Below are positions 47,452 to 55,450 of a stretch of DNA of 64,000 nucleotides, piece after piece (the stretch's first letter is position 1; each line of letters begins with the position of its first letter). The DNA lies in the NCBI RefSeq assembly GCF_009914755.1, contig NC_060947.1. One strand, written 5' to 3'. The translations under genes were made by a program, and so were the position numbers. The notes under the pieces are model-generated. The model saw only the letters and a list, made by a program, of their open reading frames with translations, searched no databases and had not been told where the DNA came from. The DNA is from the human T2T-CHM13v2.0 reference genome, Homo sapiens.

Positions 47452-47575
47452 CTGGAAGAGGTGGGGCTGGACTCTGTCGCCATCACCCTCGACTCGCACA
47501 TGGGGTTATCTGCGTCCAAGGCTGCCCTCGGGGCGACCACCGATGAGCCCATGGAGCCTGAGCCGAAACTGGCTG
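47452..47575 (+). pseudogene. PICALM-like exon 1 (5' boundary uncertain): LEEVGLDSVAITLDSHMGLSASKAALGATTDEPMEPEPKLA
   Basis: Aligns with CALM [36 protein letters not shown]. Ends in a phase-1 donor G|GTGAGT at 47576, in a GC/CpG-enriched patch. Confidence 0.7.
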
Positions 47576-47716
47576 GTGAGTAGGTGCAGCCATTAGGAGG
47601 CCGGGTATGGGCAGCCCACGCAGCTAGTGCCCTCCCCTTTTCCACGTCCCTGCAGGAGGGGGAGTTTGAGCTGTCATTTCTAGTAATCTTTGAGCAGAGA
47701 GGGGAACCTCTGGTGG

Positions 47717-47990
47717 GTTGTTTGTTTGTTTGTTTTTTGTTTTTTGAGACAGAGTCTCGCTGTGTTGCAGGCTGGAGTGCAGTGGTGCGATCTCAGCTCA
47801 CTGCAACCTCTGCCTCCCTGGTTCAAGCGATTCTCCTGCCTCAGCCTCCTGACTAGCTGGCACTACAGCAGCCCGCCACCACGCTCAACTAATTTGGTAT
47901 TTTTAGTAGAGACGGGGTTTCTCCATGTTGGTCAGGCTGCTCTCGGAACTCCTGACCTCAGGTGATCCGCCTGCCTCAGCCTCCCACAGC
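47717..47990 (-). mobile_element. 5'-truncated AluS in intron 1 of the pseudogene
   Basis: Alu reverse complement; TSD acctctggtg. Confidence 0.9.
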
Positions 47991-49523
47991 GACCTCTGGT
48001 GTTTTTAACTACAAATTCCAAAATATTTAGAAATTATTCAACTAAGATAGGAGACAAAGAGGGTGGAATAATAACCCAGGCTTCTTAGAAAGGTCTCATT
48101 TCCCAAGTTCACCCCAGTGCCCTTATAAATTGTAACATTCAGCGAGTCTTCTGAAGGAAAGTCTATTGAATAGATTCTCCCTTAGGTATTCCTAACCTAA
48201 CGTCCATGAATAGGCTTTAGAGTGTCCATGGCACAATTTTTGTGCCCTGTGTATGTTTCTAGGAGGAAGATTTTTGATTCCTAGAGTGACCCGTTGCTCA
48301 AAGGATAGACTCCCAGTCTACCCAGTCTAGCCCCATTCCCTGTTGTCTGAGCTTGTAGTGAGCAGTGACTTGATAAACAATGTGTGCTATTGGCAGAGTA
48401 TACTTAAATTTTACAGCTATTGAAAGCTTCACAGCTAGCTCACTGTTTTGATCACCCCTTTATTTTGGTATTTTGCTTAAACTATTCATTGACTTAATCT
48501 GTATTTGCCTTCTGAAGTTTTATCTTCTTATCATCGTGCTAATGTGCATGTGTTACAGCAAGTTACTAAGTTAAATAGAGATTAATTTCATATATATATA
48601 TATATATATATATGTTTGCAAAGCATCATTCTCAGCAGGCCACATACTAGATTCTCTGTATATATTATACAGTCCTGGATACTTATGTAATATATGCCAG
48701 AATTGGCTTCTGAAGACCTAAAGAAATGCTCATTAATGAATAAGTGCCATGGATGAAGTTGTGCCATAATCATAGTTTGTAGACAGTTTTGAAAGCAAAG
48801 AGGATTTTGAACTGGTAAAAAGTAGGGAATCATTGCCATGTTCTTGAATGTGAAAATCAAATTATGAAACTTAACTTTTGAGGGGCTGTATGAAATGAAT
48901 TCATGAATGGTTATAGGCATGAGGCCAGAAATTTAAAAGCTGTCACAATAAACTAGGTACAAAGTTATGAGGTAGTGGACTCAAGAAAAAGAAGCAATAA
49001 ATAAAAGGATACGGGATGCAGATAAAAGGATCAGAGATGGAGTGACAGTACAAAGAAAGTTCCTAACTGAACCTTCATGGAATGACAGTTTTCTTGAGAG
49101 AAGTAGTGACAGTGGTTAATAGCTTGGTCTCTAGGGTCAAACAAATCTAGTTTCAAATCCCAGCCCTGCCATTTAACTACCTGTATGATCTTGGGTATGT
49201 TACCTTCTTCAGTACTGTTCATTCATTTAATAAGTATTGACCAAAACCTGTTATGTGCCATCTGCTTTGCTGGGCCTTGAGGACCAAAATGGATTCATTC
49301 CCTCCCCTCATCAAGTATGCAAGATAACTAAAGGCATTAAATATCATGTAACATATAACAGTGCAAATTGTAATACATGTAATGAAGAAAATGTTTTTGA
49401 GGATTCCCTATGTCATTTCTCCAACATTTGATTGCATCTGTACTTAAGTTAAAATTACCAATTTTGGTTTTGAAAATTATTTCTCAGTCTGTATTCTAAT
49501 GCTTGTCATTGTCTCTAATTTAG

Positions 49524-49666
49524 ATCTAATACAGTACATCAGTGAAACTAACATAAGCGTTGAACATCTGGCTAATGTTCTTTCTGAAAAAACTAGGAGC
49601 AGTAGCTGGGTGGTGGTGTTCAAAGCCCTGGTTACTGTACATCACCTCATGGTGCACGGAAATGAG
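49524..49666 (+). pseudogene. PICALM-like exon 2 (143 nt): DLIQYISETNISVEHLANVLSEKTRSSSWVVVFKALVTVHHLMVHGNE
   Basis: tttAG|AT acceptor, GAG|GTGAGC donor; contains the ANTH signature SSWVVVFK.L.T.HHLMV.GNE. Confidence 0.95.
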
Positions 49667-50139
49667 GTGAGCGTAAGCATGCAATTGCAAAATGTTCTTG
49701 GTTTGTCAAGGGCTTACTACCTTTTACTTTAATTAGTGGCAAGTGAGAGAAGTGAATAGCAGTATGTATTTAAAATATTTTTATCTGTTTTTATTAATGA
49801 ATATATCTTTGTGATCAGTATTCTTTGAGGTGTATCATTTTAGTCACTGATGAAATAGCCACTGGATAACAATGTCCATAATAGAGTGGATATTTCTGTC
49901 AATTCTTTAGAGGATTTAGACCCCAAAAAGCCCCTTAGAAATGTGTTACCTCATACTTGCTTTACTTTGACAGGAGAGACTACACCTAAGCATATTACCT
50001 CATCACCTACCCATCTCTCTATATTTTACAGAACAACTGGAATGCTCCATAACATTAAATTACTTATTATTTTCTACTTTAAATTCACAGGCATTTTCCC
50101 TCAGTAAGTTTTGTATTAAAAAATCAGGGTTTAGAAATT

Positions 50140-53266: not shown

Positions 53267-54184
53267 GTAGGATAAAGAATAAGCTTTTTAAATGATTACT
53301 TTTTAAAGCATAAAATGGTAAAATAATTTATTTGTAAAAATCCCTTGTCTCTACATTTAGACTCACATTTGTTTTAGATACAAAATAGAAAATCTTTGCA
53401 GGGTCATGTATACTTTTCAATACAAATATTATATTGCTTCATTGGTTAAACATTATTTGGCTAATTAGCTACAAAACTTTTCCACTTTTATGTAAGTGCT
53501 AACTGATATTTCTGGGAAATTTGTCAGGGAATCAACCTAGGTTGCCATGTTTATTCATTATATGGTAATAAGGCCCATTTCCACCAAGTTCAAATAACAC
53601 AGTTTTGACTTTCCTAAGAAGGTAAAGCCTATAACATAAGTAATTGTTATTGATGATATACAAGCATATATTTTTAGACTTTTCAGGAAATTACTGTCAT
53701 CATTTAGCCCTAATGAATGATTCATTTAGCTGCAATTATTCTATAAACTTTATTGACGGGAATTTGATAGCTTTCCTTATACTGAAGAAATACGTAGTAT
53801 TATACATTTGTAGGGTTATAAGAGAGTAGGAAACACAGCTCTTTCCCTCAAAGGGTTGCAGAGCTTTGTATTAATCAAAAAGACTATAGACTAGAAGTCG
53901 TTGAAATTAAAATCTAAACTATCTGTGCATGCTATTAAATTCCATATACCCAGCACCGGTATTTGGTATACAGTAGTTACTCCATAAAAAATAGTTGATT
54001 ATGGGGATAGAGCAGTGCTATTTCTTGTTATTAAAACAGAAAATAACTTGATTAAAATTATAATTGTTTTGAACAGGTTAAATTCATATCCAGAATTAGC
54101 TTAAAATAGAATAATCAGAATGGAGTAAAACTTGAAAATTGCTAAGATATTGGCTCCTTTATGGTAATTTTTTTCTATTTTTAG

Positions 54185-54291
54185 ACAAATATTTTGACAT
54201 GAGGAAGAACCAATGCAGGGAAAGTTTGGATATTTACATCAGGTTCCTTAGAGGAACAACCAAATTGACACAGTTTCTGAAAGTTGCAGAG
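54185..54291 (+). pseudogene. PICALM-like exon 7 (107 nt): DKYFDMRKNQCRESLDIYIRFLRGTTKLTQFLKVAE
   Basis: ttttAG|AC acceptor, GAG|GTACAG donor; compare CALM [36 protein letters not shown]. Confidence 0.95.
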
Positions 54292-54896
54292 GTACAGAAA
54301 TCCATTTCTACTTAAGGTGTTTCTTTTTTTGCAATAATTTAGTATCACTTGAAACTATACCTCTTTCCTCCACCACCATAACCACACAAACGCACAGAAA
54401 TTGGTAGTTGTTTTAACTACTTTGTAAACAGTAAAACTAAAACTAAAACTAAAGTTAGGTACTTCAAATGTACTATCCAATGCACTTGCACTCAAAAGCA
54501 ATCTTACAAGGACTTCTGTTTGCAGCCATAAAGATAACCAGTATGAAGCTTACCCTCCCACCAGAAACAACTCTAAAAGTAGACCAAAATATATATGACA
54601 TAAGTCTTTTTAGGTAGTGAACAATAGGTAGGTTTGTGGTCAGTGACAGAAACACTTGAGGTGAGCCCCATGTTCTCCCTGACACTCAGAGAACCCAAGC
54701 AGGATAAATACAAAGAGAACCACACGGAGGCGAGTGATAGTCAAGCTTCTGAAAACCAAAGAGAACAAAGACATATTACCCATGGGAGAATGACAATACG
54801 AATAATCGCTGACTTCTGACTACTTGAAAAATTAGAACACGTTTGTATGATATCCAAAATGCAGCTTAGCTCTTCTTAAATCAGCAAAGACTCAAT

Positions 54897-55205
54897 AAGC
54901 TGGAAACCATCATTCTCAGCAAACTAACACAAGAAGAGAAAACCAAACACCGCATGTTCTCGCTCATAAATGGGAGTTGAACAATGAGAACACGTGGACA
55001 CACGGAGGGGAACATCACACACCGGGGCCTGTCAAGGTGTGAGGGGTTACAGGAGGGACAGCATTAGGAGAAATAACTAATGTAGATGATGGGGGTTGAT
55101 GGATGCAGCAAACCACCATGGCACGTGTACACCTATGTAACAAACCTGCATGTTCTGCACATGTACCCCAGAACTTAAAGTATAATGAAAAAAATAAAAA
55201 TAATT
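54897..55205 (+). mobile_element. 5'-truncated L1PA 3' end in pseudogene intron 7
   Basis: gctggaaaccatcattctcagcaaactaacac...acttaaagtataat followed by an A-tail. Confidence 0.92.
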
Positions 55206-55405
55206 TAAAAAGTCTATCCTTAGGATAAATATAAGGGTGTCCTTAAGTGTGCGAGGCATACTTTAGCCTGATAAGGTACCAGCCCAGGAAGACATCATAC
55301 TCTTGGGGTATTTTCTCTTTCATGCACACAATGATCTCTCAGTTACATTTTTGTTGTTGCCACTCCCTGCTGTAACGTGTACTTTCCCCCTCTTTTTTGT
55401 TTCAG

Positions 55406-55450
55406 CAAGTTGGAACTGACCAGAGCAACAACATTCCATATATTACTCAG
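55406..55450 (+). pseudogene. PICALM-like exon 8 (45 nt): QVGTDQSNNIPYITQ
   Basis: tgtttcAG|CAA acceptor, CAG|GTCAGT donor; compare CALM QVGIDRGDIPDLSQ, with one extra AAC codon. Confidence 0.9.

What the first reader, a model, noticed from the sequence alone, without database searches (positions are those of the whole stretch)
47452..55450. Hidden 8-exon third CALM/AP180 (PICALM/SNAP91) paralogue downstream of BRCC3
Seen: eight colinear + strand exons (about 47452-47575, 49524-49666, 51635-51710, 52695-52796, 52956-53035, 53155-53266, 54185-54291, 55406-55450) whose spliced translation covers essentially the whole ANTH domain. Only exon 2 shows up in the ORF track. Known (from memory): PICALM coding exons 2-8 are 143/76/103/94/112/107/42 nt. 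Here they are 143/76/102/broken/112/107/45 nt with the same phases, so this is a genomic duplicate rather than a retrocopy. Inference: it is the relic of a separate clathrin-adaptor gene that was under selection for a long time. I recognise no human gene symbol for it and cannot check whether it is already annotated.
Basis: partly seen in the sequence, partly recalled or inferred. Interest (0 to 1): 0.9.

Follow-up and report, generated by a model that had tools for sequence, protein, structure and literature searches.

The report
Dead third CALM/AP180 gene on Xq28
Between BRCC3 and VBP1 the human X chromosome carries the broken remains of a third member of the PICALM/SNAP91 clathrin-adaptor family, a gene still predicted as intact in many other mammals and vertebrates.

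Summary
Eight colinear + strand exons at 47,500-55,450 encode an ANTH domain. Their exon lengths and phases match human PICALM (chr11) and SNAP91 (chr6), which I read directly from the same genome. The relic is larger than reported. At least six more exons lie downstream, at about 66.7, 73.9, 78.5, 82.9, 107.8 and 119.2 kb in window-extended coordinates. The last two sit inside VBP1 intron 1, so the span is about 72 kb.

It is not a recent copy of PICALM. Trees place it, sister to macaque, in a third jawed-vertebrate clade (100/99 support). That clade holds the proteins NCBI calls "PICALM-like" in fish, amphibians, reptiles, birds, marsupials and many eutherians. Several of those models are fused to the neighbouring VBP1 or BRCC3.

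The human copy is dead. It has a 1-nt deletion in exon 4, a 1-nt insertion in exon 5, an unreadable exon 5 end with no donor, and stops in all three frames at the 5' end of exon 12.

Eutherian orthologues are remodelled. They lack the N-terminal helix, two of the three lipid-binding lysines and the motif-rich middle, and they start with MG-x-S-x-SK.

Seven literature searches found no paper on this locus. Verdict: an unannotated unitary pseudogene of an unnamed gene.

The parts
47500..47575 (+). Exon 1, coding part. The ATG at 47,500 opens MGLSASK..., the donor is GTGAGT and the exon ends in phase 1. Human lacks one codon relative to macaque (the H/Q after K).
   Evidence: The start matches 43 orthologue models that begin MG-x-S-x-SK.
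49524..49666 (+). Exon 2, 143 nt, open, AG/GT borders.
   Evidence: (ANTH E 4.8e-8)
51635..51710 (+). Exon 3, 76 nt, open, AG/GT borders.
52695..52796 (+). Exon 4, 102 nt instead of 103. A 1-nt deletion in a Thr codon at 52,709-52,710 shifts the frame.
   Evidence: The macaque and bonobo models read this codon intact.
52956..53050 (+). Exon 5, broken. There is one extra base at 52,975. The last five codons are unreadable (TAA at 53,039-53,041, or a second +1 shift). The expected donor position has AAATTT instead of GT.
53155..53266 (+). Exon 6, 112 nt, open, AG/GT borders.
   Evidence: (ANTH E 9.7e-7)
54185..54291 (+). Exon 7, 107 nt, open, AG/GT borders.
55406..55450 (+). Exon 8, 45 nt, open. 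It has one extra in-frame codon relative to macaque.
55451..64000 (+). The in-window part of intron 8. It holds the 1,041-bp recombination element at 58,087-59,127. The gene continues beyond the window, and six further exons are listed here in window-extended coordinates (64,001 = C23:153,390,001). Exon 9 is 66,753-66,832 (80 nt, open, AG/GTAAGT). Exon 10 is 73,938-74,014 (open, with an alternative acceptor giving a start at 73,908, donor GTAATG). Exon 11 is about 78,492-78,568 (short form, open; the long-form acceptor is not AG in human; these borders were re-derived by eye). Exon 12 is 82,851-83,010 (core 82,888-83,010 open; all three frames hold a stop between the acceptor and 82,897). Exon 13 is 107,818-107,862 (45 nt, open, AG/GTAAGA, inside the VBP1 span). 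Exon 14 is 119,174-119,281 (108 nt, open, AG/GTACGT, in VBP1 intron 1; identical over 43 of 43 residues to the tail of the bonobo model). A final mini-exon was not located.

Best explanation
This is an unprocessed, unitary pseudogene. It is the human remnant of a third jawed-vertebrate member of the CALM/AP180 (PICALM/SNAP91) clathrin-adaptor family, the gene that pipelines label 'PICALM-like' in other species. The gene lies on the + strand between BRCC3 and VBP1, and its last exons are nested in VBP1 intron 1. In non-eutherian vertebrates it encodes a full PICALM-type adaptor of about 600-660 aa. On the eutherian stem it was remodelled into a protein of about 420-450 aa. In the human lineage it was then inactivated by frameshifts in exons 4 and 5, loss of the exon 5 donor, and stops at the 5' end of exon 12. 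Shown here: the exon map, the lesions, the clade placement, and adjacency to VBP1 and BRCC3 in other species through fused models. Inferred: that the eutherian gene is functional (from conserved open frames only), and that inactivation happened within catarrhine primates. The timing rests on gene models, not DNA. Capuchin and macaque models have intact exons 4 and 5, the bonobo model skips exon 5 but reads exon 4 intact, and human is broken in both.
For: Exon structure matches PICALM and SNAP91 read from the same genome. The own genome holds only five ANTH loci, on contigs C7, C12, C11, C6 and this one on C23, so no intact copy of this gene exists elsewhere. About 20 library proteins are 68-97% identical to exon 2, against 60-64% for PICALM and SNAP91. 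Their source names are 'phosphatidylinositol-binding clathrin assembly protein-like' in sloth, armadillo, ferret, squirrel, cattle, dog, bats, tree shrew, mouse lemur, macaque, bonobo and others. Models fused to prefoldin subunit 3 occur in horse, mouse lemur, deer, wallaby and opossum, and one Peromyscus model is fused to BRCC36, so the genomic position is shared. In the ANTH tree of 71 rows, SNAP91 has support 100/100, PICALM 99/96, the third clade 100/99, the eutherian group 100/100 and human+macaque 100/99. In the ANTH+tail tree of 36 rows and 428 columns, the third clade has 100/99 and marsupials plus eutherians 99/97, in species-tree order. The AU test rejects eutherian-type plus PICALM as one clade, with p 0.003. 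Tails are 36-48% identical to 'PICALM-like' proteins against 23-31% to PICALM in 10 of 10 eutherian proteins. The lesions were mapped with a frameshift-aware alignment against intact macaque, capuchin, lemur, horse and sloth models.
Against: With ANTH columns alone the AU test does not reject eutherian-type plus PICALM as one clade (lnL difference 13.7, p 0.28). The eutherian stem is long (0.33-0.45), which makes placement sensitive. All orthologues are computational gene models. Several are partial, skip exons or read through into neighbouring genes, so 'intact in other mammals' is not experimentally shown. Most human exons are still open with good splice sites: exons 6-11 read 168 codons and exons 12-14 read 92 codons without a stop. 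Residual transcription or a non-coding role is therefore not excluded. I examined only one human haplotype (T2T-CHM13). The lesions in exons 11 and 12 depend on assuming the same acceptors as in lemur and horse.
Confidence: 0.9

Rival explanations
1. The locus is still a protein-coding human gene that escapes the lesions by alternative splicing, for example by skipping exon 5 as in the bonobo models.
For: Bonobo Gnomon models P0003 and P0004 are filed as proteins. P0004 joins exon 4 to exon 6 in frame. Most human exons are open with canonical splice sites.
Against: The human 1-nt deletion in exon 4 lies upstream of that junction and is absent from the bonobo model. In my reading of the sequence, the shifted frame then meets a TGA inside exon 4. 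Skipping exon 5 would remove 31 residues of the ANTH domain. All three frames are closed at the 5' end of exon 12. The RefSeq table supplied with the finding lists no gene here.
Confidence: 0.03
2. The locus is a comparatively recent duplicate of PICALM or SNAP91, for example a mammalian segmental duplication, rather than an old separate gene.
For: Exon sizes and phases are identical to PICALM and SNAP91. ANTH-only data do not formally reject grouping with PICALM (p 0.28).
Against: Exon identities to PICALM and SNAP91 are only 48-78% at the protein level. The third clade includes fish, amphibian, sauropsid and marsupial proteins. Alligator, Pleurodeles, Lissotriton, Ascaphus and Eublepharis each have both PICALM and the 'like' gene on different contigs. 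The AU test on 428 columns gives p 0.003. Tail identity favours the third clade in 10 of 10 proteins.
Confidence: 0.02
3. The relic is dead as a coding gene but survives as a transcribed non-coding or regulatory unit, for example a lncRNA or a transcript that interferes with VBP1, whose 5' end it overlaps on the same strand.
For: Splice sites are well preserved across about 72 kb. A GC-richer patch sits at exon 1, with GC 0.54-0.58 and CpG o/e 0.42-0.45. The last exons lie in VBP1 intron 1. Read-through models into VBP1 exist in other species.
Against: No expression data were available. Preservation is equally explained by recent inactivation. No Rfam family matches in 44,000-64,000.
Confidence: 0.15

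Closest known systems
PICALM (CALM), human chr11
   Same: It has an ANTH domain. Coding exon lengths and phases for exons 2-7 are the same (143/76/103/94/112/107), and the C-terminal tail has the same general design.
   Different: It belongs to a separate clade. Exon-level identity is 48-78%. Human PICALM is intact, while this locus is frameshifted. In eutherian orthologues of the relic the AH0 positions are absent, and K28 and K38 are replaced in every row that has a residue there except two, which keep K38. The motif-rich middle region is missing.
SNAP91 (AP180), human chr6
   Same: It has an ANTH domain, and exons 2, 3, 4, 6 and 7 have the same lengths.
   Different: It is the more distant clade, the outgroup to PICALM plus the third clade. 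The one full-length SNAP91-type protein I scored has a long tail with 13 D-x-F and 11 DLL/DLF motifs, against almost none in the eutherian relic-type proteins.
NCBI 'phosphatidylinositol-binding clathrin assembly protein-like' LOC genes of other vertebrates
   Same: These are the orthologues. They fall in the same clade, occupy the same position next to VBP1 and BRCC3 as judged from fused models, and macaque is 94% identical over 244 ANTH columns.
   Different: They are predicted with open frames, while the human copy has at least three frame-disrupting lesions and a lost donor. Non-eutherian members are about 600-660 aa and keep AH0, K28, K38, K40, H41, M244 and an NPF motif.
Human unitary pseudogenes in general (the class is recalled, and no example was examined here)
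   Same: It is a single-copy, intron-containing gene disabled in situ, with predicted functional orthologues in other mammals.
   Different: The RefSeq table supplied with the finding does not list it. It also overlaps a live gene (VBP1) on the same strand.

Membership tests
CALM/AP180 family (Pfam ANTH, PF07651) | Sequence match to the ANTH domain | tested here: met
   Four of 7 exon pieces hit ANTH colinearly, and 2 of them are above the cut-off. CALM and LAP ANTH structures match at E about 3e-13. Every orthologue row that I read in the tables carries precomputed PF07651.
CALM/AP180 family (Pfam ANTH, PF07651) | Exon-intron structure shared with PICALM and SNAP91 | tested here: met
   Lengths are 143/76/102(103-1)/broken/112/107 against 143/76/103/94/112/107, with the same phases.
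CALM/AP180 family (Pfam ANTH, PF07651) | PtdIns(4,5)P2-binding lysines K28, K38 and K40. The K28E/K38E/K40E mutant is binding-dead according to Miller 2015, PMC4406947, passages read. | tested here: not met
   Human has G, E and K at these positions, and the codon aligned to the neighbouring H41 is deleted. Among 17 eutherian rows, position 28 is G in 12, R in 2, F in 1 and a gap in 2. Position 38 is E in 12, and position 40 is K in 13. In the non-eutherian 'PICALM-like' rows all three are K in all 16 rows that have a residue there.
CALM/AP180 family (Pfam ANTH, PF07651) | [quoted passage not shown] | tested here: not met
   In the 17 eutherian rows and in human, positions 6 and 10 are gaps throughout, and position 17 is a gap in 16 of 17 rows and in human. 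The human sequence upstream of the ATG is no more similar than chance.
CALM/AP180 family (Pfam ANTH, PF07651) | R-SNARE-binding residue M244 (M244K abolishes binding; Miller 2015, passages read) | tested here: not met
   Human has T. Eutherian rows have T in 12, M in 4 and K in 1 of 17. All other clades keep M, except one SNAP91-type row with I and one fish row with a gap.
CALM/AP180 family (Pfam ANTH, PF07651) | Unstructured tail with endocytic motifs (NPF, D-x-F, DLL/DLF). The motif list is recalled. | tested here: not met
   Among the 9 eutherian tails scored, none has NPF, 8 have no D-x-F (the mouse lemur row has 2) and 8 have no DLL/DLF. The tenth, Ictidomys, could not be scored. All 12 'PICALM-like' tails have 1 NPF, 1-3 D-x-F and 1-2 DLL/DLF.
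Third vertebrate clade ('PICALM-like') | Phylogenetic placement inside the clade | tested here: met
   The clade has 100/99 support in both trees, and human is sister to macaque at 100/99. The alternative with PICALM is rejected on 428 columns (p 0.003) but not on ANTH columns alone (p 0.28).
Third vertebrate clade ('PICALM-like') | Conserved position between BRCC3 and VBP1 | tested here: met
   The human exons lie between the two genes. Fused models exist with prefoldin subunit 3 (horse, mouse lemur, deer, wallaby, opossum) and with BRCC36 (Peromyscus). This is indirect, because I did not view the genomes of those species.
Unitary (unprocessed) pseudogene | Introns retained and no intact copy elsewhere in the genome | tested here: met
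   There are thirteen introns between the 14 mapped exons. The genome holds only five ANTH loci, on contigs C7, C12, C11, C6 and this one on C23.
Unitary (unprocessed) pseudogene | Disabling mutations relative to intact orthologues | tested here: met
   Exon 4 has a 1-nt deletion, exon 5 has a 1-nt insertion plus a degraded 3' end without a GT donor, and the 5' part of exon 12 is closed in all frames.
Unitary (unprocessed) pseudogene | Functional orthologue in related species | tested here: inconclusive
   Open-frame models exist in many orders, and MG-x-S-x-SK is present in 50 of 74 models. I saw no expression or protein evidence.
Processed retrocopy | Intronless, with a poly-A tail | tested here: not met
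   Introns sit at the parental positions.

The most novel reading that the evidence does not exclude
At the base of placental mammals, the third CALM/AP180 gene was converted from a classical lipid-binding endocytic adaptor into something different. The new form is a short ANTH protein that has lost the membrane-inserting helix, two of the three PtdIns(4,5)P2 lysines, the R-SNARE methionine and the scored endocytic motifs. It is instead anchored by N-myristoylation of a conserved start of the form MG-x-S-x-SK. Apes, including humans, then discarded this gene. A corollary is that the picalm genes studied in fish may be orthologues of this lost gene rather than of human PICALM.
Probability: 0.3. 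Interest if true: 0.75.

Novelty: new member of a known kind. Interest (0 to 1): 0.6.

Why it matters
From memory, and not checked here, reviews treat mammalian CALM/AP180 as a two-gene family (PICALM, an Alzheimer-risk and leukaemia-fusion gene, and SNAP91). This locus shows that jawed vertebrates have a third member. Placental mammals remodelled it sharply, and humans carry only its wreck. That has four consequences. Orthology assignments need care, because 'PICALM-like' and read-through 'prefoldin subunit 3' or 'BRCC36' isoform models in databases are this gene. Fish and frog picalm experiments may need re-reading. It defines a human gene loss that can be dated in primates. It also shows that the distal breakpoint repeat, which I take to be that of the haemophilia-A F8 intron 1 inversion, lies inside an intron of an old gene rather than in featureless intergenic DNA.

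Tried and rejected
1. I searched the own genome with the exon 1 peptide to find PICALM and SNAP91 exon 1. Only the self-match came back, so exon 1 of the paralogues was never compared at the DNA level.

2. I tested whether the 17 codons upstream of the ATG at 47,500 are a remnant of the ancestral N-terminus. They are not distinguishable from chance.

3. The ANTH-only AU test was inconclusive, with p 0.28, so I added tail columns.

4. Exact 6-mer and standard tblastn searches for the last exons failed within 55-107 kb. They were found only after I fetched VBP1 intron 1. The final mini-exon of a few codons plus the stop was not located.

5. The protein atlas returned only generic invertebrate ANTH clusters and gave no taxon information for this clade.

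6. An Rfam scan of 44,000-64,000 on both strands found nothing.

7. Seven literature searches found no paper describing this locus or a third vertebrate CALM/AP180 gene. Hits for 'PICALML' are titled as studies of PICALM itself, and I take the term there to mean its long isoform. I read no supplements.

9. I considered and dropped a rough dN/dS estimate from human-macaque identity, because no orthologous DNA was available.

The six downstream exons are now listed inside one in-window part.

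
Full report
OBSERVATION. I read the eight intervals directly. Exons 2-8 begin after AG. All end before GT except exon 5. Lengths are 143, 76, 102, broken, 112, 107 and 45 nt. Seven in-frame pieces were scanned against Pfam. Four hit ANTH in colinear order: exon 2 at profile 27-71 (E 4.8e-8), exon 4 at 101-125 (E 5.6e-3), exon 6 at 176-210 (E 9.7e-7) and exon 7 at 212-245 (E 2.3e-4). 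Two of these are above the curated cut-off. The pieces for exons 1, 3 and the second half of exon 5 gave no hit. Exon 2 alone matches six distinct solved ANTH sequences (CALM and Drosophila LAP) at E about 3e-13 to 5e-13.

COMPARISON WITH THE PARALOGUES IN THE SAME GENOME. The window's genome is held. An ANTH profile search finds 12 exon matches at five loci only: contigs C7, C12, C11, C6 and this window on C23. From their chromosomes I take these to be HIP1, HIP1R, PICALM and SNAP91. That naming is recalled, but searches confirm that C11 encodes human PICALM. I fetched 30 kb of C11 and 30 kb of C6 and mapped the relic's peptides onto them. Identities to PICALM / SNAP91 were 60/64% for exon 2, 48/55% for exon 3, 64/54% for exon 4, 78/69% for exon 6 and 66/54% for exon 7. 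For the second half of exon 5, identity to PICALM was 63%, and SNAP91 gave no hit. Reading the borders gives PICALM exons 2-7 as 143/76/103/94/112/107 nt and SNAP91 exons 2, 3, 4, 6 and 7 as 143/76/103/112/107 nt, with the same phases as the relic. PICALM exon 8 encodes 14 residues.

ORTHOLOGUES. A search of 1.84 billion representative proteins with exon 2 gave 455 hits at E <= 0.001. The top 20 or so are 68-97% identical, well above PICALM and SNAP91. Their sequences share a start of the form MG-x-S-x-SK and a PICALM-like C-terminal tail. NCBI predicts 'phosphatidylinositol-binding clathrin assembly protein-like' proteins of about 420-450 aa in sloth, armadillo, ferret, stoat, squirrel, marmot, seals, tree shrew, whales, cattle, pangolin, hyena, cats, dog, chinchilla, degu, guinea pig, bats, rabbit, elephant, mouse lemur, macaque and bonobo. 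Some models are named 'prefoldin subunit 3 isoform' (horse, mouse lemur, white-tailed deer, wallaby). An opossum model carries both ANTH and prefoldin domains. A Peromyscus model is named 'BRCC36 isoform X6'. Prefoldin subunit 3 is VBP1 and BRCC36 is BRCC3, the two flanking genes in human, so the position is conserved. This evidence is indirect, because I could not view those genomes.

FULL EXTENT IN HUMAN. I mapped the orthologues onto the window plus 90 kb of downstream DNA. This adds exon 9 (66,753-66,832), exon 10 (73,938-74,014, with an alternative acceptor giving a start at 73,908), exon 11 (about 78,492-78,568), exon 12 (core 82,888-83,010), exon 13 (107,818-107,862) and exon 14 (119,174-119,281). 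VBP1 starts at 107,306 according to the supplied table, and its exon 2 maps at about 130.4 kb. Exons 13 and 14 therefore lie in VBP1 intron 1 on the same strand. Exon 14 is identical over 43 of 43 residues to the tail of the bonobo model. A last mini-exon was not found. The span is about 71.8 kb.

LESIONS. I ran a frameshift-aware protein-to-DNA alignment against intact models.
- Exon 4 has a 1-nt deletion in a Thr codon at 52,709-52,710. The codon is intact in the macaque and bonobo models.
- Exon 5 has one extra base at 52,975. The capuchin and macaque models read through this point.
- After codon 26 of exon 5, the last five codons cannot be read. Either the TAA at 53,039 is in frame, or there is a second +1 shift.
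- The expected exon 5 donor position reads AAATTT.
- In exon 12, all three frames contain a stop between the acceptor (AG at 82,849-82,850) and 82,897. I read these stops from the sequence printed.
- The long-form acceptor of exon 11 is not AG in human, but a downstream AG used by the lemur model is present.
- In-frame changes are one codon lost in exon 1, one codon gained in exon 8, and codon losses in exons 12 and 13.
Otherwise the frames are open. The stretch from exon 1 into exon 4 reads 103 codons with no stop (counted from the intervals spliced, which reported no stop in the whole conceptual translation). Exons 6-11 read 168 codons, and exons 12-14 read 92 codons. So few lesions suggest a geologically recent death. 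Gene models fit an order in which exon 5 was lost after the split from Old World monkeys and the exon 4 deletion arose after the split from bonobo. That order rests on models, not on DNA.

PHYLOGENY. The ANTH-only tree has 71 rows (65 distinct), 267 columns, model LG+C20+F+G4, and is rooted on 8 invertebrate rows. Support is 100/100 for SNAP91, 99/96 for tetrapod PICALM and 100/99 for a third clade. The third clade holds all 'PICALM-like' rows from a caecilian, frogs, salamanders, tuatara, lizards, turtle, alligator, ratite birds and marsupials, all 8 fish rows, and the 17 eutherian rows plus human. The eutherian group has 100/100 support on a stem of 0.33, and human+macaque has 100/99.

An AU test that holds eutherian rows and PICALM together was not significant (lnL difference 13.7, p 0.28). 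I report this as a result against my reading. I then added the C-terminal tail, giving 36 full-length rows and 428 columns chosen by coverage in the eutherian rows. This tree gives the third clade 100/99 with an internal order of fish, amphibians, sauropsids, then marsupials plus eutherians (99/97). The same AU test now rejects the rival (lnL difference 42.8, p 0.003). Tail identity is 36-48% to the 'like' group against 23-31% to PICALM in 10 of 10 eutherian proteins. Alligator, Pleurodeles, Lissotriton, Ascaphus and Eublepharis each have a PICALM and a 'like' protein on contigs of different length.

Rows left out were partial models, and isoforms beyond one per species and gene. The fish rows came from searches seeded with the relic type, so the absence of fish from the PICALM clade may be a sampling effect.

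WHAT THE INTACT GENE LOOKS LIKE. Non-eutherian members keep everything that defines CALM. I took the reference points from passages of Miller et al. 2015 (PMC4406947): residues 1-18 form helix AH0, the K28E/K38E/K40E mutant abolishes PtdIns(4,5)P2 binding, and M244K abolishes R-SNARE binding. In the 17 'like' rows, K28, K38, K40 and H41 are present in all 16 rows that have a residue there, and M244 is present in 17 of 17.

In the 17 eutherian rows the picture is different. Positions 6 and 10 of AH0 are gaps in all 17, and position 17 is a gap in 16. Position 28 is G in 12, R in 2, F in 1 and a gap in 2. Position 38 is E in 12. Position 40 is K in 13. Position 244 is T in 12, M in 4 and K in 1. 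L219 is kept in 17.

Fifty of 74 eutherian models contain MG-x-S-x-SK, and 43 begin with it. The other 24 lack it, and those I read are partial or use another start. From memory, this pattern fits the N-myristoyltransferase consensus and resembles the Src start. That is a lead, not a test. Of the 9 eutherian tails scored, none has NPF and 8 have no D-x-F (the lemur row has 2). One row could not be scored. All 12 'like' tails keep 1 NPF and 1-3 D-x-F.

My inference is that on the eutherian stem the gene changed from a classical lipid-binding endocytic adaptor into a shorter ANTH protein with a different mode of membrane attachment and different partners.

SURROUNDINGS. No Rfam family matches in 44,000-64,000 on either strand. 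Exon 1 sits in a GC-richer patch, with GC 0.54-0.58 and CpG o/e 0.42-0.45, below the usual island threshold. The annotated 1,041-bp recombination element at 58,087-59,127 lies in the relic's intron 8. Its only other copy in the genome is inverted, 100% identical and about 141 kb upstream, inside the F8 span. From memory this is the int1h-2/int1h-1 pair of the F8 intron 1 inversion. The macaque model ends in an exon that maps to 58,078-58,269, inside that element.

KNOWN OR NEW. Seven full-text searches found no paper on this locus or on a third vertebrate CALM/AP180 gene. I read listings only, except for passages of PMC4406947. The gene is, however, routinely predicted by annotation pipelines in other species. 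The supplied RefSeq table has no entry here for human, and I could not check GENCODE. I therefore file it as a new member of a known kind: an unannotated human unitary pseudogene of an unnamed, unstudied gene.

Noticed in passing
window 58087-59127 (relic intron 8) and G000:C23:153242509-153243549 (locus L026): The annotated 1,041-bp recombination element sits inside intron 8 of the relic. Its only other genomic copy is inverted, 100% identical and about 141 kb upstream, within the F8 span. From memory this is the int1h-2/int1h-1 pair behind the F8 intron 1 inversion. If so, that inversion would separate relic exons 1-8 from exons 9-14.
   Followed up: partly
window 58078-58269: The macaque 'PICALM-like' model (P0380) ends in an exon that maps here at 87.5% identity over 64 residues, inside the recombination element. 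By eye, the Rhinopithecus model (P0005) starts the same terminal stretch. The frame is open in human.
   Followed up: no
window-extended 107818-107862 and 119174-119281 (loci L013, L021): The relic's last exons are nested in VBP1 intron 1 on the same strand. Database 'prefoldin subunit 3 isoform' models in horse, mouse lemur, deer and wallaby, and a 'BRCC36 isoform' model in Peromyscus, are read-through fusions with this gene. They are a source of mis-annotation.
   Followed up: partly
tree (no window coordinates): All 8 sampled ray-finned fish ANTH proteins, including two from Electrophorus, fall in the third clade, and none falls with tetrapod PICALM. If wider sampling confirms this, fish picalm genes would be orthologues of this lost human gene rather than of PICALM. 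The sampling here was biased towards the relic type.
   Followed up: partly
window 47000-48000: Exon 1 lies in a GC-richer patch, with GC 0.54-0.58 and CpG o/e 0.42-0.45, against GC 0.34-0.39 on either side. It may be an eroded promoter island.
   Followed up: no
window 52797-52808: Six bases past the normal exon 4 donor there is a second GT (GTAAAT). Used with exon 5 skipping, it keeps the frame, and this is what the bonobo model P0004 does. In human the upstream 1-nt deletion defeats this route.
   Followed up: partly
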